From assembly GCA_934140575.1 (NCBI GenBank), contig CAKPBJ010000001.1, forward strand, positions 196,905-260,904: a stretch of DNA of 64,000 nucleotides. The letters run 5' to 3'. Both the position numbers and the translations under genes were made by a program. The notes below the pieces were generated by a model. That model had not been told where the DNA came from, ran no database searches, and saw nothing but the letters and a program-made list of their open reading frames with translations. This document shows, piece by piece, positions 8,294 to 45,728 of this stretch. Position 1 is the first letter of the stretch. Every line of letters starts with the position of its first letter. This stretch comes from an uncultured Bacilli bacterium. Lineage in GTDB: Bacteria; Bacillota_I; Bacilli_A; RF39; UBA660.

Positions 8294-8368
8294 TGGAGCG
8301 AACGAGGGGAATCGAACCCCCATCACAGCCTTGGCAAGGCCGTATTCTAACCATTGAACCACGTTCGC
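8294..8368 (-). tRNA. tRNA-Gly (anticodon GCC)
   Basis: The reverse complement reads gcgaacgtggttcaatggttagaatacggccttgccaaggctgtgatgggggttcgattcccctcgttcgctcca. It has the anticodon loop cttGCCaa, a T-loop GGTTCGATTCC and an encoded CCA. Confidence 0.85.
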
Positions 8369-8376
8369 ATATAAAT

Positions 8377-8450
8377 TGGAGGGGCCTACCGGATTTGAAC
8401 CGGTGATCAGGGTGTTGCAGACCCACGCCTTACCACTTGGCTAAAGCCCC
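8377..8450 (-). tRNA. tRNA-Cys (anticodon GCA)
   Basis: The reverse complement reads ggggctttagccaagtggtaaggcgtgggtctgcaacaccctgatcaccggttcaaatccggtaggcccctcca. It has the anticodon loop ctGCAac, the U73 discriminator typical of Cys, and a CCA end. Confidence 0.85.
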
Positions 8451-10843: not shown

Positions 10844-12436
10844 CTAATTATTTGAATTTGATTCAATGTATTCTTCATAAGGAATTGATCTATCAGTGAT
10901 TGTTCCATCTTTATGAATTTCTATTACTCTATTTGCTACTGTACTATTTAATTCATAGTCACGTGATGTAAAGAATAATTCTCCTTTAAAGTTACATAAT
11001 CCTTTATTTAGTGATGTAATACTTTCTAGGTCTAAATGGTTTGTTGGTTCATCTAGTATTAAGAAGTTTGGCTCTTCTAACATCATTTTTGATAACATAC
11101 ATCTGGCTTTTTCTCCTCCTGATAAGACACTTACTTTTTTAAAGACATCTTCTCCTGAGAATAACATTCTTCCTAAGAAACCTCTTAGTATCGTTTCATC
11201 TTTTATATCATAGAATTGTCCAATCCATTCCATAATATTTTTATCTGTTTTAAAGTACTCATTATTATCTTGTGGTAGATATCCTGGATTTATTGTTTTA
11301 CCCCACTCTATGCTTCCTTTATCATACTTTTCTTTTCCCGTTAAAATATTAAATAGTGTTGTTTTTACCATATCATCTTCAGCTAAGAAACATATTTTAT
11401 CTCCTTTTAAAACTGTAAATGATACTTTATTTAATATTATTTTACCATCTATTTCCTTAGTTAAATTTTCTACTTTTAATATTTCTTTTCCTGCTGGTTT
11501 TTCTATTTTAAAATCAATGTATGGATATTTTCTACTTGATGGAACTATTTCATCTAGTTGGATTTTTTCTAACATTTTTTTACGAGAAGTTGCCTGTTTA
11601 GATTTTGATGCATTAGCGCTGAATCTTGCGATGAATGATTGTAATTCTTTTATCTTTTCTTCTTTTTTCTTATTGGACTCTCTCATTTGTCTTTGTAATA
11701 ATTCACTTGATTCATACCAGAAATCATAGTTACCAATATATAATTTAATTTTTGAATAATCAATATCACATATGTGAGTACATACTTTATTTAAGAAGTG
11801 TCTGTCATGTGAAACTATTATTACTGTGTTATTGAAATTGATTAAAAATTCTTCTAACCACTTAATTGCTTCTATATCTAAACTGTTTGTTGGTTCATCT
11901 AGAAGTAATATATCAGGGTTACCAAATAATGCTTGTGCTAGTAATACTTTAACTCTTAGCTTTACTGGAAGTTCTTTCATTTCCATGTAGTGATATTCTT
12001 CTTTAACACCTAAGTTATTAAGAAGTTGAGCTGCATCTGGCTCTGCATTCCATCCATCAAGGTCTAAGAATTCAGCTTCTAAATTAGCTAATTTCATACC
12101 GTCTTCTTCTGTAAACTCAGTTTGACAATACATTTTGTCTTTCTCTTCCATAATTTCGTATAATTTAGTATTTCCCATTATAACTACATCAATTACACGT
12201 TTATCATCAAATTGATAATGGTCTTGTTTTAAGAAAGATAATCTTTCTCCTTTTGTTATAGTTATTTCCCCAGTAGTTGTTTCTAATTCGCCACTCAATA
12301 ATTTTAAAAATGTTGACTTTCCACTACCGTTTGCACCTATAAGTCCATAGCAATTACCATTTGTAAATTTTATATTTACATCTTCAAATAAAGTCCTTTT
12401 TCCAAACTTTAAACTTACATTAGATACTTGTATCAT
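10844..12436 (-). CDS. ABC-F family ATPase (two tandem ABC domains, no TM domain)
   Basis: Two Walker A motifs (GANGSGKST and a second in the C-terminal half), two signature motifs (LSGGEKAR) and the linker between domains are present. The protein is 530 aa. Confidence 0.85.
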   Translation of the reverse strand: MIQVSNVSLKFGKRTLFEDVNIKFTNGNCYGLIGANGSGKSTFLKLLSGELETTTGEITITKGERLSFLKQDHYQFDDKRVIDVVIMGNTKLYEIMEEKDKMYCQTEFTEEDGMKLANLEAEFLDLDGWNAEPDAAQLLNNLGVKEEYHYMEMKELPVKLRVKVLLAQALFGNPDILLLDEPTNSLDIEAIKWLEEFLINFNNTVIIVSHDRHFLNKVCTHICDIDYSKIKLYIGNYDFWYESSELLQRQMRESNKKKEEKIKELQSFIARFSANASKSKQATSRKKMLEKIQLDEIVPSSRKYPYIDFKIEKPAGKEILKVENLTKEIDGKIILNKVSFTVLKGDKICFLAEDDMVKTTLFNILTGKEKYDKGSIEWGKTINPGYLPQDNNEYFKTDKNIMEWIGQFYDIKDETILRGFLGRMLFSGEDVFKKVSVLSGGEKARCMLSKMMLEEPNFLILDEPTNHLDLESITSLNKGLCNFKGELFFTSRDYELNSTVANRVIEIHKDGTITDRSIPYEEYIESNSNN

Positions 12437-12475: not shown

Positions 12476-12520
12476 TTAAAAAAAACAAGCTTGTGAAATT
12501 GCTTGTTTATATTATTTTTT
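12476..12520. terminator. bidirectional rho-independent terminator
   Basis: The hairpin acaagcttgtgaaattgcttgt is flanked by an A8 run and a T-rich run. Confidence 0.6.
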
Positions 12521-13175
12521 TGACTAATTCTTTAATATTTGAGTGACCATCTATTATTTCGTCAAAATATGCACTACATTCTGTATCTGGTTCTTTCATT
12601 TCTAGTAAACCTTTTAATGCTTGTATTTTATCATTTTGAACATTTGCTTTTCTTAAATCTTGAATAATAAGTGCTTGTAATAATATATATAGTTGATATT
12701 TATTTAAATTTTCTAAGTTTTCTATGTTATCTGTTTTAAATATAGTATATCTGCTTGGATCTGATAAATAAAGAGAACCGTTAAATATAGTGTTTTTTGG
12801 GTCAATACCATTTAATAAAACTTGTTTTGAACTCAATACTCTTACATCCTCTTCTAGTTCTTTTACATTTCTTATAAAGTCATTTTTAGGTATACTTATT
12901 ATATTTTTACTTCTAGGTTTTTGAGAAACTAATTTTAATGTATAGCCTTTGAAAGTGTTATTATAAAATAATAAGTTTTTTGGTAGAAGAATTTTATCAG
13001 TTCTCAATCCTGATAAATATTTTGCTGTATCTCCATCTATACATTCATTTAATTCTTCATTTTCTAATACTTTTAGTGCAGTTTTTTCTAAACGATATAC
13101 ATAGCCTCTTTTTCCCTGAGCTATTTTTTGTAATTTGTTTAGGTCAATTTCTTTTTTATTTATTCTATATCCCAT
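12507..13175 (-). CDS. hypothetical protein
   Basis: The ORF is 222 aa with no confident motif. Confidence 0.4.
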   Translation of the reverse strand: MGYRINKKEIDLNKLQKIAQGKRGYVYRLEKTALKVLENEELNECIDGDTAKYLSGLRTDKILLPKNLLFYNNTFKGYTLKLVSQKPRSKNIISIPKNDFIRNVKELEEDVRVLSSKQVLLNGIDPKNTIFNGSLYLSDPSRYTIFKTDNIENLENLNKYQLYILLQALIIQDLRKANVQNDKIQALKGLLEMKEPDTECSAYFDEIIDGHSNIKELVKKII

Positions 13176-13208: not shown

Positions 13209-13811
13209 TTACTTTTTGTAGAAATTTGATATAAATTTAGCAAATTCGTATAGAATAATATTACTTTTATTTATTGCGAAACTTTTACCTATTGCTTTTC
13301 CACCTATTGTTATAGAGGCAATTATTGCAGCTACTGTTATACTTGTTAGTAGTGCGTTTAATTTAAAATCTAATACTAATGTGGCTGCTATTGATGTTGC
13401 TGCTGCTCCTGATATGATACCACATACATCTCCGATAACATCACAGCAGAAACTAGATACTTTATCGGCATTTTTTTTAAACTTAACCGCAATGTTAGCA
13501 CCTTTTACTTTTCTTGAACTCATCGAATGGAATACTTTTTCATCTGCTGATGTAACAGACACTCCAATTATGTCAAATAGTATACCTAGAAATACGAAAA
13601 ATAAAGTTACAATAATACCAAGCCATAATGAAAGATTTGGTATTGTTGTTTCTGAAATAAAAGATAAGCAAAAAGATGAAATGAAAGCTACTGATACTAC
13701 GGTCATTACCCATTTTTTATTTACTTGTTCTTTCTTTACTTTTTCTTTTTTCTTAGTAACTTCTACTAAATTATCAAATTCATTGTTCTTTTTTTTATTT
13801 TTATTAAACAT
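13209..13811 (-). CDS. small 4-TM membrane protein with Lys-rich N-terminus (OapA-like candidate)
   Basis: The ORF is 200 aa. The N-terminus KKNNEFDNLVEVTKKKEKVKKEQVNKK is followed by four hydrophobic helices. The RBS GGAGAA is at 13815-13820. A 590-nt structured leader lies immediately upstream. Confidence 0.55.
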   Translation of the reverse strand: MFNKNKKKNNEFDNLVEVTKKKEKVKKEQVNKKWVMTVVSVAFISSFCLSFISETTIPNLSLWLGIIVTLFFVFLGILFDIIGVSVTSADEKVFHSMSSRKVKGANIAVKFKKNADKVSSFCCDVIGDVCGIISGAAATSIAATLVLDFKLNALLTSITVAAIIASITIGGKAIGKSFAINKSNIILYEFAKFISNFYKK

Positions 13812-13829
13812 TTTTTCTCCTATCGTTTC

Positions 13830-13852
13830 AAAAAAAAAGTAGTTAAACTACT
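13830..13852 (-). terminator. terminator/attenuator-like hairpin followed by U8 on the minus strand
   Basis: The stem agtagt/actact with loop taa is followed on the minus strand by TTTTTTTT. It sits 20 nt upstream of the RBS of 13209..13811 and at the 3' end of the GC-richer block. Confidence 0.55.
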
Positions 13853-14429
13853 TTATTATTCTTAATTGTTTGGCTATCAAAATAGTAAACTTTGGGCCTT
13901 AGGTCAAGTAGGATTTCCCTAATTCTTACACTTCCGTTACCAGATGTGCGGTTCCCCTTTACAAGAATTAATATGTCGTTTCCGATTCATACGACTTGAT
14001 TGCCACTTAGTGCCCACTGCAATCCTATAATGAAGTACACCCTAGGAGATTTCCTCTCCAACACTTTATTATTAATCCTTTTTTGCAAAAACAATTTCAA
14101 GACGCACACTTTTATGAGCGGCCTGTTCATAAAAGCTTGATCATCTATCCCAAAATTTTCACTCAAGACAGGCTACGCTGTACATAACTTTCGCCATATA
14201 CAGGTTTAATCCTATAACGTATATAATCACACGATGTTAGGTCTCCACGAATAATGGGTCGGGATTCATATGCCATTATGAGTCGCCCATCATTCTTCAT
14301 CTCCAGCATCCACCCCAAACTGGGCGTAAGAAGCAGACACCAAAGGTTTCACAGATGTGCCCTTTAACGAATTTTTAAGCTCGTCTTCCTAATAAAGTAA
14401 TTGACTAGAATAGTGTGCCATCAATTACA
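13853..14429 (-). ncRNA. candidate large structured ncRNA or 5' leader (about 580 nt; OLE-like or long riboswitch leader); identity unresolved
   Basis: No ORF of 60 aa or more occurs on either strand over about 600 nt. GC is about 40-45% here against about 25% in flanking DNA. A consensus sigma-A promoter sits at its minus-strand 5' end and a hairpin/U-run at its 3' end. Confidence 0.45.
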
Positions 14430-14435
14430 GTCTAG

Positions 14436-14464
14436 ATTTTATCATAATTTAGTTAATTTGTCAA
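14436..14464 (-). promoter_or_regulatory. consensus sigma-A promoter (TTGACA-N17-TAAAAT) reading into the structured RNA block
   Basis: The minus strand reads ttgaca aattaactaaattatga taaaat. The plus-strand coordinates are 14459-14464 for the -35 and 14436-14441 for the -10. The predicted TSS is near 14429. Confidence 0.6.
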
Positions 14465-14575
14465 GCAACCACAACCACAACTGCAACCGCTAAACATCAA
14501 AATTAGCTTTCCTGTAAGGTTCAATATAATGTTTTTTATGATTTATTTATATTTTTAATTTTAATAATGTCCTTA

Positions 14576-15619
14576 TTATTTTGAATACACTTTTGGAATT
14601 GATGTTTCTTCTTCTTTTAATTTTTCTGAAAAATAAGGTTTATTCAATATACCATTTTCTGCTAGGTATATTAAGTAATCAGATATTGGTTCTTCACTAG
14701 TCATACACTGAATAATACCTCGATAGTATAAATAATTATTATATTGGTCTAATCCATTTTCATTGTCTTTTAAATATATGAAATATGAATCTAAATATGT
14801 TATTACTTGTTTAAATTCTTCTTCGTTTATATCTTTGTTTGCTTCATATGATTCAAAAATACTATTCAAATTAGTTAAGAACTTTTCTGTTCTTTCTGTT
14901 CCGCCTATTCTTTCTAGATTGTCTTTAATAATTGAAATGTTCCCTTTACTATACGCTTTTAAAACATTATCGCTTCCTATAAGTTCACATAATATTTTAA
15001 CTGATGCTATTTCAAAGGGATATGAATTAACTTCTGCATAGGGATCATTTGAAATGTATTCATTATTTAATAATTCTGTCATACCTTCTATAAAATATGA
15101 AGGTGTTGATGCTAATGGAGTGCGTGTATAAATACAATGGATAAATTCATGGGTTAATACTTCGTCTCTAGTATAATTTTTTGGTCCATACACTTCTATT
15201 TTATGTGGAATATCAAAATATGCTGCTAAAACATTTTCTTCCAAGCCGCTTCTAAGTGGACAGTCATATTCTACTTTTACAGTTGATAAAGCAGCTTTAG
15301 CTATTAATGTATTTAAATATTCATTTTCAGACATTAAATCTTTTAATGAATATATAACTTCTTTTTCTTTTTTTGATAAATGTTCATTATTTATTATTGC
15401 AACTAGCAATTTTTGCAGATTTCTATTGTTTTTTTCTTCTTCCGTTTCTTCTCCAAAGTAGTCTTCGACTTCTTCTATCATTTTATCTTGTGGGTCTATT
15501 TCTAAAATGCTTGTAATTGTTGGAACTACGTTTTTTGCTAATGCATCTGATGCTGTATTATATATAATCCCTGCAGCTAAAAATATTGCAATAATTCTTT
15601 TACTTCTTACTTTTAACAT
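14576..15619 (-). CDS. secreted putative zinc metallopeptidase (HExxH)
   Basis: A signal peptide (MLKVRSKRIIAIFLAAGIIYNTASDALA) and the motif LTHEFIHC are present. Confidence 0.5.
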   Translation of the reverse strand: MLKVRSKRIIAIFLAAGIIYNTASDALAKNVVPTITSILEIDPQDKMIEEVEDYFGEETEEEKNNRNLQKLLVAIINNEHLSKKEKEVIYSLKDLMSENEYLNTLIAKAALSTVKVEYDCPLRSGLEENVLAAYFDIPHKIEVYGPKNYTRDEVLTHEFIHCIYTRTPLASTPSYFIEGMTELLNNEYISNDPYAEVNSYPFEIASVKILCELIGSDNVLKAYSKGNISIIKDNLERIGGTERTEKFLTNLNSIFESYEANKDINEEEFKQVITYLDSYFIYLKDNENGLDQYNNYLYYRGIIQCMTSEEPISDYLIYLAENGILNKPYFSEKLKEEETSIPKVYSK

Positions 15620-29327: not shown

Positions 29328-29404
29328 GGCGCCATTGGTGAAGTGGTTAACACGCTAGTTTGTGGCACTAGTATGCAAGAGTTCGATTCTCTTATGACGC
29401 CCCA
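29328..29404 (+). tRNA. tRNA-His (anticodon GUG) with G-1
   Basis: The sequence reads g gcgccat tggtgaagtggttaacacg ctagt ttGTGgc actag ... aagagttcgattctctt atgacgc c cca. There is one acceptor-stem mismatch. Confidence 0.8.
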
Positions 29405-32266: not shown

Positions 32267-34042
32267 TTATTCTACTGTTACTGACTTAGCTAAATTTCTT
32301 GGCTTATCAATGTCTAATTTTTTCAAATCACCTACATAGTAGCCTACTAATTGTAGTGGTGGTACTACCAATATTGATTGGAAGTAGTAATTTATTTTTG
32401 GTACTACATATTTGAAGTGATGATTTTTTAGAGTTTCATCATTAGTTATTGTGAATATCTTACCTTGACGTGATTCTACTTCTATTACATTAGATTCAGT
32501 TTTTTCTTTTATACTTTCATCTGTAATAATTGCAAATATTGGGACATTTTTTTCTATTAATGATATTGTTCCATGTTTTAATTCTCCTGCTTGATAGGCA
32601 TCACTATGAGTATAAGATACTTCTTTTAACTTTAAGCTTCCTTCAAGGCAAATTGCATAGTCAATACCACGACCAATATAGAACACATCATGATTTTTGT
32701 ATATTTCTTTAGAGATATTTTTAAATATTTCTTTATCATCTAATATTTTCTTTAATAATTTTGGTAATTCGTTTGCTTCTTTTAGTATAGTTTCATAATC
32801 TTTTTCTAGTCCTTTTTCTTTTGCTGCTTTTAATGAAATAAGTGCAAGTACTGCAACTTGTAGTAAATATGCTTTTGTTGTTGCGACTGCTATTTCTGGT
32901 CCTGCTTCTATAAACATTACATGTTTTGCTTCTCTTGCGATTGTACTTGTTTTTACATTAACTATTGCTAGTGTATCAACTCCATCAGCATGAGCTTTTC
33001 TCATTGCAGCTACTGTATCGGCTGTTTCTCCTGATTGAGATACTAAAATTACTAATGTTTTTCTATCATATATTACCTTTTTATAACGATATTCACTAGC
33101 ACATTCAACATAACATTTTATATTAGCTTTTTCTTCTAAAAGATTTCTTCCAATCATACCAGCATACATTGCACTTCCACAAGCTACTATATGTATTTCT
33201 TCATATTTTGAAACATCAAATACATCTTCCATATTGTTTATATATTTATTTAGTGTTCTTGCGAGTACCATTGGTTCTTCCATTATTTCTTTTAACATAT
33301 AATGTTTATAAGAACCTTTATCTGCTTCTTCTTTTGTTATATTAGCTGATTGAATATCTTTTTTTATCTCTTTACCATCTTTATAGGCTTTTATTTTTTC
33401 ACTTGTTAATTCTACTATTTCATTTTCTTCTAATAGAATATATTTATTTGTATAGTTAATTATTGCCGCTATATCTGAAGCAATATAATTTTCATTTGAA
33501 TTAGTTCCTATAATTAATGGTGAGTCTTTTCTTACTGCGTATAATTTATCTATATCTTCAAACATTATTCCGAAGGCGTATGATCCTTTTATTTCTTCTA
33601 ATGCCTTTGTTATTGCGGTTACTGGGTCACCTTCATAATATTTATTTATAATTGCACAAGCTACTTCTGTGTCTGTATCACTATTAAAATTAACACCTTC
33701 ATTTAATAATTTTTGTTTTAATTCTTCAGCATTTTCTATAATACCATTATGTACTAATGTTACTTTTCCAACTTGATGTGGATGAGCATTCTTTACAGTT
33801 GGCTCTCCATGAGTTGCCCATCTAGTATGAGCTATACCAATATTTCCTTTTAATAACTTTGAATTATGAATTTTTTTCTCTAAGTCTCTTATTCTTCCAA
33901 CACTTTTAATTATTTGTATTTGATTATTCTCTTTTATTGCGATTCCACTTGAATCGTATCCTCTATATTCTAGATTTTTTAGTCCATTTATTAAAAATTC
34001 TTCAGGGCTTTTTTTACCTATATACCCTATTATTCCACACAT
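32267..34042 (-). CDS. glmS: glutamine--fructose-6-phosphate aminotransferase
   Basis: The N-terminus MCGIIGYIG (catalytic Cys2), tandem SIS domains and the C-terminus ...KSVTVE are present. The protein is 591 aa. Confidence 0.9.
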   Translation of the reverse strand: MCGIIGYIGKKSPEEFLINGLKNLEYRGYDSSGIAIKENNQIQIIKSVGRIRDLEKKIHNSKLLKGNIGIAHTRWATHGEPTVKNAHPHQVGKVTLVHNGIIENAEELKQKLLNEGVNFNSDTDTEVACAIINKYYEGDPVTAITKALEEIKGSYAFGIMFEDIDKLYAVRKDSPLIIGTNSNENYIASDIAAIINYTNKYILLEENEIVELTSEKIKAYKDGKEIKKDIQSANITKEEADKGSYKHYMLKEIMEEPMVLARTLNKYINNMEDVFDVSKYEEIHIVACGSAMYAGMIGRNLLEEKANIKCYVECASEYRYKKVIYDRKTLVILVSQSGETADTVAAMRKAHADGVDTLAIVNVKTSTIAREAKHVMFIEAGPEIAVATTKAYLLQVAVLALISLKAAKEKGLEKDYETILKEANELPKLLKKILDDKEIFKNISKEIYKNHDVFYIGRGIDYAICLEGSLKLKEVSYTHSDAYQAGELKHGTISLIEKNVPIFAIITDESIKEKTESNVIEVESRQGKIFTITNDETLKNHHFKYVVPKINYYFQSILVVPPLQLVGYYVGDLKKLDIDKPRNLAKSVTVE

Positions 34043-34064: not shown

Positions 34065-34235
34065 TTATAGTGTAGATATATTCTTTGTTATAATGTTGAT
34101 TTTACTTTTTACTATATATCTTTACGAATCACTTATCCGTAGTAGTACCCGCCGAATATTTCGATAACTACTAACCTCGTCATCCTATTATGGACCTGGC
34201 GCTTCAATGATTTACTATCCTTTCTACTAACCATC
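34065..34235 (-). ncRNA. glmS ribozyme (GlcN6P-responsive self-cleaving riboswitch) in the glmS 5' UTR
   Basis: The minus strand reads ...AGCGCCAGGUCCAUAAUAGGAUGACGAGGUUAGUAGUUAUCGAAAUAUUCGGCGGGUACUACUACGGAUAAG.... This matches the ribozyme core AGCGCCAG...GACGAGG...GGUUAUCGAAUUUUCGGCGG. Confidence 0.85.
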
Positions 34236-45548: not shown

Positions 45549-45728
45549 ATGGCAGTTAATATTACTACTAGAAAAGATAATGTAAAAAACATTAGATCTC
45601 ATGCTTTAAACACTACTAAGAAGAGACAAAACTTAAATCTACAAGTATTTAGACTTGAAGATGGTACAAAAGTTAGACTTTCAGCTAAAGAAATTAGAAC
45701 TTTAAGAAAAAATGAAAAAGCTGCTTAA
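45549..45728 (+). CDS. rpmB: 50S ribosomal protein L28 (missed by the ORF track; 59 aa)
   Basis: The product reads MAVNITTRKDNVKNIRSHALNTTKKRQNLNLQVFRLEDGTKVRLSAKEIRTLRKNEKAA. The RSHA(M/L)N core of L28 is present. The RBS GGAGGG lies 7 nt upstream. Confidence 0.85.
   Translation: MAVNITTRKDNVKNIRSHALNTTKKRQNLNLQVFRLEDGTKVRLSAKEIRTLRKNEKAA

What the first reader, a model, noticed from the sequence alone, without database searches (positions are those of the whole stretch)
13209..14464. Structured RNA of about 590 nt, driven by a consensus sigma-A promoter and ending in a hairpin/U-run 20 nt before a 4-TM, Lys-rich small membrane protein gene: OLE/oapA-like arrangement or long riboswitch leader
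On the minus strand there is a perfect TTGACA-N17-TAAAAT promoter at 14436-14464. It is followed by about 590 nt with no ORF on either strand and GC near 42% in a roughly 25% GC genome, a hallmark of structured RNA. A stem-loop with a U8 run follows at 13830-13852. The RBS and start of a 200-aa protein with a Lys-rich N-terminal tail and four TM helices follow at 13811. Established knowledge is that OLE RNA, about 600 nt and found in anaerobic or extremophilic Firmicutes, lies immediately upstream of oapA, which encodes a roughly 21-kDa four-TM protein that binds it. The inference is that this could be an OLE-class RNA. It could alternatively be another large ornate RNA, or a long cis-regulatory leader ending in a terminator-type expression platform. 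The 3'-proximal 190 nt contain GGGGAACC and GGGAAAUCC elements loosely reminiscent of c-di-AMP (ydaO-type) riboswitch halves. I could not match RNase P, tmRNA or SRP consensus sequences.
Basis: partly seen in the sequence, partly recalled or inferred. Interest (0 to 1): 0.65.

Follow-up and report, generated by a model that had tools for sequence, protein, structure and literature searches.

The report
OLE RNA and its oapA gene

Summary
Window 13854-14437 (minus strand) is an OLE RNA. Rfam RF01071 matches it end to end at 399.6 bits (threshold 50, E 6.5e-114), and no other RNA family comes close. The fold holds up independently: in 74 homologous regions from gut-bacterial genomes, 87% of cells pair versus 39-50% in shifted controls, and 92 pairs carry compensatory changes. 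The 200-aa gene 20 nt downstream of the U-run is oapA. It is 38% identical (E 2e-30) to a published OapA, has four hydrophobic segments, an invariant DxxxD motif, and the weak CNNM similarity reported for OapA. A near-consensus sigma-A promoter with an extended -10 precedes the RNA, and an AU-rich hairpin plus U9 follows it; both are conserved in most relatives. Unlike about half of the relatives that have the hairpin, the window has no separate oapA promoter after it, so oapA is probably expressed by read-through. The host is most likely an RF39-type gut Bacilli species. Its OLE keeps P8, the k-turn and the OapB site, but has a species-specific truncation of the P7 tip. OLE in such lineages was surveyed in 2024. 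Verdict: observation confirmed, interpretation supported, already known, low interest. One side observation: the neighbouring orphan gene has a kinase-like fold.

The parts
14436..14464 (-). Sigma-A-type promoter of ole: -35 TTGACA (14464-14459), 17-nt spacer ending in TG, -10 TAAAAT (14441-14436)
   Evidence: 11/12 consensus with TG. The same architecture is upstream of OLE in 65/73 relatives. Synteny with the closest relative L005 starts exactly at the -35.
14428..14432 (-). Predicted transcription start (inferred, not mapped)
   Evidence: It lies 5-8 nt after the -10. The sequence conserved among relatives begins at G14428 (GUAAUUGAUGG, alignment A1 column 10).
13854..14437 (-). OLE RNA (Rfam RF01071), 584 nt matched to model positions 1-616
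   Evidence: 399.6 bits vs gathering 50, E 6.5e-114. No rival family. Covariation supports the fold.
14390..14397 (-). 5' strand of the long-range P3-like helix (CUUUAUUA), pairing with 14064-14071 (UAAUAAAG); not annotated in the Rfam model
   Evidence: Predicted independently by RNAalifold, with up to 20 sequences showing compensatory change at a single pair. Coordinates.
14366..14385 (-). P4a hairpin (Rfam 54-73), the region where one OapA binding site was mapped in the literature
   Evidence: Rfam alignment. 25 compensatory AU/GC changes at one pair. Binding-site statement from PMC12265935.
14298..14365 (-). P5/P5.1 stem with flanking k-turn elements (5' CAUC-UGU-GA within 14365-14348; 3' GGAGAUG at 14304-14298), the OapC/bS21 site in H. 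halodurans
   Evidence: Motifs located. Helix 14346-14300 has 20 pairs. K-turn description from PMC9723947.
14211..14241 (-). P7, with its distal part deleted relative to most relatives
   Evidence: Alignment A1 columns 218-261 are empty in the window and L005 only. Most relatives carry CCUAUACG...CUGAUGG there. The same sequence occurs in four independent metagenome assemblies.
14178..14203 (-). P8 hairpin (retained)
   Evidence: Rfam 249-277 aligned. 99.8% of cells paired across 74 sequences (helix 7).
14076..14169 (-). P9 multi-segment arm
   Evidence: Rfam 286-383. Helices 8-11. Coordinates.
13920..13970 (-). P12.2 / internal loop UAAAGGGGAACC / P13 with GUAA tetraloop: the OapB-binding region in H. 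halodurans
   Evidence: Motifs at RNA nt 477-488 and 495-504. Helices 17 and 18 are 99% and 96% paired with many compensatory changes. OapB site per PMC9723947 and PMC12265935.
13830..13854 (-). AU-rich 8-bp hairpin plus U9 run: probable weak intrinsic terminator and 3'-end element of OLE
   Evidence: dG -5.8 kcal/mol, z -2.0. Not called by the strict scan. Hairpin plus U-run conserved in 69/78 relatives with compensatory stem variants.
13817..13821 (-). Ribosome-binding site AGGAG of oapA, 5 nt before the ATG
   Evidence: Read directly from the sequence.
13209..13811 (-). oapA: 200-aa, 21.9-kDa membrane protein with four hydrophobic segments and a Lys-rich N-terminal tail
   Evidence: ORF. 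38% identity over 162 aa, E 2e-30, to a published OapA. Clade HMM vs that OapA gives E 5e-37. Hydropathy. Weak PF01595 CNNM hit, 19.4 bits.
13428..13442 (-). Codons for the OapA DxxxD motif (D124-V-I-G-D128)
   Evidence: D124 and D128 are invariant in 79 homologues. The motif is described as distinctive of OapA in PMC11332333.

Best explanation
The segment is the ole-oapA locus of an uncultured gut Bacilli bacterium, most likely of the GTDB order RF39. A strong sigma-A promoter (14464-14436) drives a transcript of about 600 nt starting near 14429. It folds into the conserved OLE RNA architecture and ends at an AU-rich hairpin plus U9 (13854-13830). There are only 20 nt and no promoter between the U-run and the oapA start codon. 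The oapA mRNA (13811-13209) is therefore most likely made by polymerases that read through this weak terminator, giving abundant free OLE RNA and less oapA message. By homology with the studied systems, OapA dimers in the membrane bind the RNA near P2 and P4a, the RNA dimerises, and the resulting membrane ribonucleoprotein helps the cell cope with stresses (alcohols, cold, excess Mg2+, poor carbon sources). Shown here: the RNA's identity and conserved fold, the conservation of promoter and hairpin, and the OapA homology and motifs. Inferred: the transcript ends, read-through, RNA-protein binding, dimerisation, localisation and physiology.
For: Rfam OLE at 399.6 bits, full length, with nothing else at E < 3. 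All 20 of the most divergent relatives tested also give full-length OLE hits of 338-380 bits. OLE-like sequence lies upstream of the oapA homologue in 82 of 84 loci. On a MAFFT alignment not fitted to the structure, the Rfam structure gives 87.2% paired cells vs 39-50% for slid controls, 92 vs 38-50 pairs with compensatory change, and 0/500 shuffles reaching the observed values. RNAalifold recovers the same helices plus the long-range P3-like helix. OapA: E 2e-30 to the published OapA, invariant DxxxD and four hydrophobic segments, and a sub-threshold CNNM hit as published for OapA. The promoter is conserved in 65/73 relatives, the hairpin plus U-run in 69/78, and a TGnTAnAAT promoter follows the hairpin in 34/69 relatives but not in the window. 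Function and binding sites come from PMC12265935, PMC9723947, PMC11332333 and PMC12286853.
Against: No expression data exist for this locus. The hairpin has only two G-C pairs, fails the terminator scan and is only modestly more stable than shuffles, so termination efficiency is unknown. In H. halodurans, ole is part of a long polycistronic transcript and its 3' end is made by processing, so the autonomous-unit model is specific to this clade and untested. OapB and OapC were not found in the 64-kb window, and RF39 genomes are reported to largely lack them, so the composition of the particle here is unknown. The OapA structure prediction failed (pLDDT 38).
Confidence: 0.95

Rival explanations
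1. The ~590 nt are a long cis-regulatory leader (riboswitch or attenuator) of the 4-TM gene, with the hairpin/U-run as its expression platform.
For: A hairpin plus U-run lies 20 nt before the start codon with no promoter in between, the classic geometry of a terminator-type riboswitch.
Against: No riboswitch family matches even at E <= 10, and the whole region is a full-length OLE. In 34 of 69 relatives with the hairpin, oapA has its own TGnTAnAAT promoter after it. In six others there is no hairpin at all. The RNA is therefore a gene in its own right. No alternative antiterminator pairing was seen.
Confidence: 0.02
2. It is a different or new class of large structured RNA (ROOL, GOLLD, raiA-like) that only resembles OLE.
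For: None beyond size and GC contrast.
Against: 399.6 bits to RF01071 across model positions 1-616, with the family's signature conserved blocks. No hit to other families.
Confidence: 0.005
3. It is a decayed or frameshifted protein-coding gene whose GC content differs from its surroundings.
For: Three short ORFs of 46-59 aa overlap the region.
Against: Substitutions among 74 homologues preserve base pairs, with 979 cells changed on both sides vs 335 expected. No ORF is conserved.
Confidence: 0.005
4. This rival concerns expression only. The hairpin/U-run does not terminate transcription. ole and oapA are always co-transcribed, and the hairpin serves as a 3' stabiliser or processing landmark after cleavage, as OLE is processed in H. 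halodurans.
For: The stem is weak and AU-rich. H. halodurans OLE comes from a polycistronic RNA and is processed at its 3' end. Six relatives lack the hairpin and run straight into oapA.
Against: A stem directly followed by 9 U is the canonical intrinsic-terminator form. It is conserved in 69/78 relatives, half of which place a new promoter right after it, which only makes sense if transcription often stops there.
Confidence: 0.2

Closest known systems
OLE RNA (Rfam RF01071), as studied in Halalkalibacterium halodurans and Clostridium acetobutylicum
   Same: Size, full set of Rfam helices, signature conserved blocks, the k-turn elements flanking P5, the P12.2/P13 OapB-site motifs, the long-range P3-like helix, and oapA immediately downstream on the same strand.
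   Different: It has its own consensus promoter and a hairpin/U-run at the 3' end, rather than being embedded in a long polycistronic operon and processed. The neighbours are not the isoprenoid, DNA-repair or translation genes typical of ole loci; they are a secreted 347-aa protein, a glucosaminidase, an orphan kinase-like protein and an ABC-F ATPase. The tip of P7 is deleted and the small hairpin at Rfam 424-435 is absent.
Reduced OLE variants of gut symbionts: variant 1 (TANB77; shorter P7-P9, OapB site often lost) and variant 2 (common in RF39; P7 and P8 absent) (Fernando and Breaker 2024, PMC11332333)
   Same: The host is a reduced-genome gut lineage related to RF39 genus CAG-877. P7 is shortened, and P7 and P9 tips are lost sporadically in relatives.
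   Different: P8 is intact, P7 is only truncated, and the OapB-site motifs are kept. It is therefore neither variant 2 nor a typical variant 1. All 74 aligned relatives keep P8.
OapA, and its distant relatives the CNNM/DUF21 domains of MpfA/CorB Mg2+ transporters
   Same: About 200 aa, four hydrophobic segments, DxxxD motif, FH(S/A)M and GGKAI blocks, 38% identity to a published OapA, weak sub-threshold PF01595 match, and no CBS or CorC domains.
   Different: The Lys-rich tail is N-terminal (residues 1-33) here, whereas the published OapA has a short N-terminus and a Lys-rich C-terminal tail. With four membrane passes both ends face the same side, so the tail may do the same job from the other end (inference).

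Membership tests
OLE RNA (RF01071) | Covariance-model score at or above the curated gathering threshold, over the full model | tested here: met
   399.6 bits vs 50; model 1-616/616; E 6.5e-114.
OLE RNA (RF01071) | Ornate conserved secondary structure supported by covariation | tested here: met
   87.2% paired vs 39-50% slid; 92 pairs with compensatory change; 0/500 shuffles reach the observed values. RNAalifold finds 93 of 163 pairs with compensatory change.
OLE RNA (RF01071) | Length of about 600 nt with many invariant nucleotides | tested here: met
   584 nt matched, about 600 nt predicted transcript. About 200 invariant columns among 74 relatives.
OLE RNA (RF01071) | oapA as the immediate downstream neighbour on the same strand | tested here: met
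   oapA starts 43 nt after the end of the Rfam match. OLE lies upstream of oapA in 82/84 loci.
OLE RNA (RF01071) | Host in Bacillota, typically anaerobic or extremophilic | tested here: met
   Contigs come from human-gut metagenomes. Relatives are gut Bacilli MAGs including RF39 genus CAG-877.
OLE RNA (RF01071) | K-turn-forming elements flanking P5 (OapC/bS21 site) | tested here: met
   CAUC-UGU-GA and GA-GAUG are present and nearly invariant. Protein binding itself is not testable here.
OLE RNA (RF01071) | P12.2/P13 OapB-binding region with GNRA loop | tested here: met
   UAAAGGGGAACC loop and GUAA tetraloop present; helices 96-99% paired.
OLE RNA (RF01071) | RNA dimerisation, membrane localisation, stress phenotypes | not testable with these tools
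   Known only from experiments in other species.
OLE variant 2 (RF39-type) | Complete absence of P7 and P8 | tested here: not met
   P8 is intact at 14178-14203 and P7 is truncated but present at 14211-14241.
OapA | Sequence homology to an experimentally used OapA | tested here: met
   BLASTP gives 38% identity over 162 aa, E 2e-30. The clade HMM gives E 5e-37. The reference sequence is from Kretsch et al. 2025, Supplementary Table 4.
OapA | DxxxD motif | tested here: met
   D124-VIG-D128; both Asp are invariant in 79 homologues.
OapA | Small protein (~21 kDa) with four transmembrane helices | tested here: met
   21.9 kDa. Kyte-Doolittle segments at 33-54, ~60-85, 125-147 and 149-172. This is hydropathy only, not a dedicated TM predictor.
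OapA | Distant, sub-threshold similarity to the CNNM domain, without CBS/CorC domains | tested here: met
   PF01595 at 19.4 bits, below the cutoff of 28.4, residues 67-198; no other domain. This matches the description in PMC11332333.
OapA | Predicted fold superimposable on the CorB/CNNM transmembrane domain | tested here: inconclusive
   AlphaFold2 on a shallow alignment gave pLDDT 38, so no fold search was run on it.
OapA | Binds OLE RNA (2:1) and tethers it to the membrane | not testable with these tools
   Experimental property.
Riboswitch / cis-regulatory leader (ydaO, yybP-ykoY, M-box and others) | Match to an aptamer covariance model | tested here: not met
   Permissive scan of 13700-14600: apart from OLE, the best E-value is 3.7, to an unrelated snoRNA.
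Intrinsic terminator | Stable G+C-rich stem followed directly by a U-run | tested here: inconclusive
   An 8-bp stem followed by U9 is present and conserved, but it has only 2 G-C pairs and is not called by the scan. Function is untested.

The most novel reading that the evidence does not exclude
In this RF39-like clade, ole-oapA has become an autonomous module with its own strong promoter. A conserved leaky terminator sets the ratio of RNA to OapA. The fast-evolving orphan protein with a kinase-like fold, encoded directly after oapA in about two thirds of the clade, is a lineage-specific component or regulator of the OLE particle, standing in for partners (OapB, OapC) that reduced genomes are reported to lack.
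Probability: 0.07. Interest if true: 0.5.

Novelty: already known. Interest (0 to 1): 0.13.

Why it matters
It matters little as a discovery. OLE RNA has been known since 2006, is in Rfam, and was surveyed across GTDB Bacillota (2,822 hits, RF39 and TANB77 gut lineages included) in 2024. The value is practical. The region should be annotated as ole plus oapA rather than as an intergenic gap and a hypothetical protein. This clade also offers a compact natural example for people studying the still-unknown biochemical function of OLE: its own promoter, a probable terminator, a naturally truncated P7, an N-terminal Lys-rich OapA tail, and retained k-turn and OapB-site motifs in a lineage said to lack those proteins.

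Tried and rejected
1. OapA structure: AlphaFold2 on an 18-sequence alignment of 82-100% identical homologues gave pLDDT 38, which is unusable, so no fold search was run on it.
2. Sequence search of OapA against the PDB found nothing relevant (best E 0.49, a photosystem subunit).
3. NCBIfam has no OapA model; the only hit was spurious.
4. I looked for GTDB taxonomy of OLE hits in the supplement of Fernando and Breaker 2024, but the held text (5 kb) had none. The RF39 placement instead rests on two relatives from GTDB genus CAG-877.
5. I looked for OapB, OapC and bS21 in the window by listing small ORFs and by tblastn with published OapC and RpsU. Nothing had E below 1.9. OapB was not searched by sequence because I had no reference sequence. 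64 kb cannot show absence from the genome.
6. I considered an internal oapA promoter inside the OLE 3' end (TTGACC-17-TATTTT at 13907-13879, 9/12). I rejected it because the -35-like hexamer is the invariant OLE motif CUUGACCUAAGG and the -10 is poor.
7. I asked whether the G/T-rich element upstream of the -35 is a variable-copy repeat. It is not; it differs by one SNP between strains.
8. My first guess, that the 222-aa neighbour is an active kinase, is only half right. The fold is kinase-like, but the catalytic Asp position is Gly in most members.

Full report
**Observation**

- The promoter TTGACA-17-TAAAAT, with a TG extended -10, is at 14464-14436. It scores 11/12 and is the best site in the scanned 3.3 kb, although promoter-like sites in general are no more frequent there than in shuffles.
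- The following ~590 nt are 38.9% GC, against 25.8% for the window. They hold no ORF of 60 aa or more.
- An 8-bp AU-rich hairpin followed by nine U's ends at 13830. Its dG is -5.8 kcal/mol with z = -2.0. It is too poor in G-C pairs for the tool's terminator rule.
- AGGAG and an ATG at 13811 open a 200-aa ORF.

**What the RNA is**

A scan of the whole window against Rfam places OLE RNA (RF01071) at 13854-14437 on the minus strand. The score is 399.6 bits against a threshold of 50, E is 6.5e-114, and the match covers model positions 1-616. A permissive scan of 13700-14600 finds nothing else better than E = 3.7. This removes the riboswitch, ROOL, GOLLD, raiA, ydaO, yybP-ykoY and M-box alternatives.

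**Independent test of structure**

The downstream protein retrieved 80 loci from species-representative genomes, plus four metagenome contigs carrying the identical protein.
- nhmmer finds the RNA upstream of the protein gene in 82 of 84 loci.
- Rfam calls full-length OLE at 338-380 bits in all 20 of the most divergent loci tested.
- I aligned 74 copies with MAFFT and projected the Rfam structure through the window sequence.
- On that alignment, 87.2% of cells form standard pairs, against 39-50% when partners are slid by 1-3 columns.
- 92 pairs show changes on both sides, against 38-50 in the slid controls, and no shuffle out of 500 reaches the observed values.
- RNAalifold, run without the Rfam structure, recovers the same helices. 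It adds long-range pairings that Rfam does not annotate, notably CUUUAUUA (14397-14390) with UAAUAAAG (14071-14064). This corresponds to the long P3 helix of current models.

**Anatomy relative to the literature**

I matched stem numbering to Rfam coordinates using Lyon et al. 2022, Fernando and Breaker 2024, and Lyon and Breaker 2025.
- P4a is at 14385-14366.
- P5/P5.1 is at 14346-14300 and is flanked by intact k-turn elements: CAUC-UGU-GA and GA-GAUG.
- P6, P8 and P9 are present.
- The P12.2/P13 region that binds OapB in H. halodurans is intact (UAAAGGGGAACC and a GUAA loop at 13970-13920).
- The distal part of P7 is missing in the window, in the four metagenome copies and in the closest genome (L005). 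It is present in most other relatives, so the deletion is real and recent.
- Other relatives have lost P7 or P9 tips independently.
- This RNA is therefore not the 'variant 2' form, which lacks P7 and P8 and is described as common in RF39. It is closest to the full-length form with one shortened stem.

**The protein**

- The 200-aa product is 21.9 kDa. It has 12 Lys/Arg in its first 33 residues and four hydrophobic segments.
- Pfam gives only a sub-threshold CNNM match: PF01595 at 19.4 bits against a cutoff of 28.4. That is exactly how OapA is reported to behave against this model.
- The OapA-specific DxxxD motif is D124-VIG-D128, and both Asp are invariant in 79 homologues.
- The OapA sequence printed in Supplementary Table 4 of Kretsch et al. 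2025 aligns at 38% identity over 162 residues, E 2e-30.
- A profile of the clade's proteins hits that published sequence at E 5e-37.
- One difference: the Lys-rich tail is at the N-terminus here and at the C-terminus in the published protein.
- A structure prediction failed for lack of alignment depth (pLDDT 38).

**Expression architecture**

- A TTGACN-N16-18 -10 promoter abuts the RNA in 65 of 73 relatives.
- Homology with the closest genome begins exactly at the -35.
- A hairpin plus U-run follows the RNA in 69 of 78 relatives. The stem sequences differ but stay complementary: AAAGUAG/CUACUUU, AAUAGUAU/AUACUAUU, GACAAAG/CUUUGUC.
- In 34 of those 69 relatives, a TGnTAnAAT extended -10 follows the hairpin and could drive oapA separately.
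- In six relatives there is no hairpin, and the RNA runs straight into the oapA ribosome-binding site.
- The window has the hairpin but no such promoter in the 20 nt before the start codon.
- My inference is that oapA is expressed here by read-through of a weak terminator. The rival, that the hairpin only marks or protects a processed 3' end as in H. halodurans, cannot be excluded without transcript data.

**Host and context**

- The identical protein occurs on contigs from Hadza and other human-gut metagenomes.
- Relatives are MAGs labelled Bacilli, Mollicutes, Tenericutes or Erysipelotrichaceae. They include Mycoplasma sp. CAG:877 and Candidatus Faecimonas intestinavium.
- That genus is GTDB CAG-877, order RF39, family CAG-611. 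The window's own order was not determined directly.
- RF39 is predicted to be thin-walled, and the window encodes a glucosaminidase-domain protein.
- The neighbours are not the isoprenoid, DNA-repair or translation genes typical of ole loci.

**Side finding**

- The 222-aa gene directly after oapA has no family match. It has only 22 homologue clusters in the large protein collection.
- It is predicted with good confidence (pLDDT 81.9, pTM 0.79) to adopt a protein-kinase-like fold. There are more than 1,600 PDB matches at E <= 0.001, and all 50 listed top hits are protein-kinase domains, one of them a pseudokinase, with TM about 0.5.
- The position of the catalytic Asp is Gly in 23 of 33 members, and the beta-3 Lys is Arg in 9. 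It is therefore more likely a pseudokinase or an atypical enzyme.
- It lies between oapA and a highly conserved ABC-F ATPase in 51 of 78 loci; the ABC-F gene follows oapA in 59 of 80.
- The upstream glucosaminidase is equally syntenic (56 of 80). The adjacency therefore need not mean more than conserved gene order.

**Verdict**

The feature is a member of a family known since 2006 and catalogued in Rfam, and its presence in gut RF39/TANB77-type lineages was described in 2024. It should be scored low. The only mildly new points are the clade's promoter/terminator architecture, the P7 truncation, the relocated Lys-rich tail of OapA, and the kinase-like neighbour.

Noticed in passing
window 12507-13175 (-): An orphan 222-aa protein lies 34 nt after oapA, with its own extended -10 promoter-like site (13222-13195). 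It has no Pfam, NCBIfam or PDB sequence match, but AlphaFold2 (pLDDT 82) plus Foldseek show a minimal protein-kinase-like fold. The catalytic Asp position is Gly in most members, suggesting a pseudokinase. It is present directly after oapA in 51/78 relatives and evolves fast (23-82% identity).
   Followed up: yes
window 10844-12436 (-): An ABC-F family ATPase (NCBIfam PRK15064, 667 bits) is conserved downstream of oapA in 59/80 loci at 74-98% identity. ABC-F proteins act on ribosomes, and OLE has published links to translation proteins. However, the upstream glucosaminidase is equally syntenic (56/80), so this may be plain gene-order conservation.
   Followed up: partly
window 14465-14490 (-): A 26-nt G/T-rich stretch, GCGGTTGCAGTTGTGGTTGTGGTTGC, abuts the -35 of the ole promoter in an otherwise AT-rich spacer. 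It is kept within the species (one SNP in two of four metagenome copies) but absent from the closest genome, L005, where synteny breaks exactly at the -35. Its purpose is unknown.
   Followed up: partly
window 34065-34214 (-): A glmS ribozyme/riboswitch (RF00234, 72.1 bits vs 37) lies directly upstream of a 591-aa ORF (32267-34042), presumably glmS.
   Followed up: no
window 8294-8368 (-), 8377-8450 (-), 29329-29404 (+): tRNA-Gly(GCC), tRNA-Cys(GCA) and tRNA-His(GUG).
   Followed up: no
alignment A1: L022, L007, L006, L064, L068, L053, L054 (P7); L058, L074 (P9): There are independent deletions of the distal P7 stem, and of the distal P9 arm, in several relatives. Most full-length P7 stems carry a conserved CCUAUACG...CUGAUGG internal motif that the window has lost.
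   Followed up: partly
L066 (2.4 kb), L017, L019, L021, L054 (about 0.5 kb), L041, L058, L060 (about 0.19 kb): In these relatives extra DNA separates OLE (with its hairpin) from oapA, so the two genes are not always contiguous. The content of the inserts was not examined.
   Followed up: no
window 13713-13811 (-), OapA residues 1-33: The Lys-rich tail of OapA is N-terminal in this clade, whereas the published OapA has it at the C-terminus. With four membrane passes both termini face the same side.
   Followed up: partly
L005:2305-2330 and L056:28-53; L014:28-55 and L065:48-75: Identical 26-28-nt strings occur about 45-70 nt upstream of the OLE promoter in otherwise unrelated flanks, three of the four close to a contig end. 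This could be a repeat or mobile-element end that breaks assemblies, or a technical artefact.
   Followed up: no
window 14576-15619 (-): A 347-aa protein upstream of ole has an N-terminal hydrophobic segment and a weak HExxH-type match to flagellinolysin (NCBIfam E 6e-4, far below cutoff). It is poorly conserved in the clade (24/80 loci).
   Followed up: no
L014, L028, L052, L053, L082: Loci carrying this Bacilli-type ole-oapA unit sit in bins labelled Parabacteroides goldsteinii or Muribaculaceae. This is probably binning contamination rather than transfer to Bacteroidota.
   Followed up: no
window 45549-45728 (+): A 59-aa ORF reads like ribosomal protein L28. This is by eye only and was not tested.
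   Followed up: no
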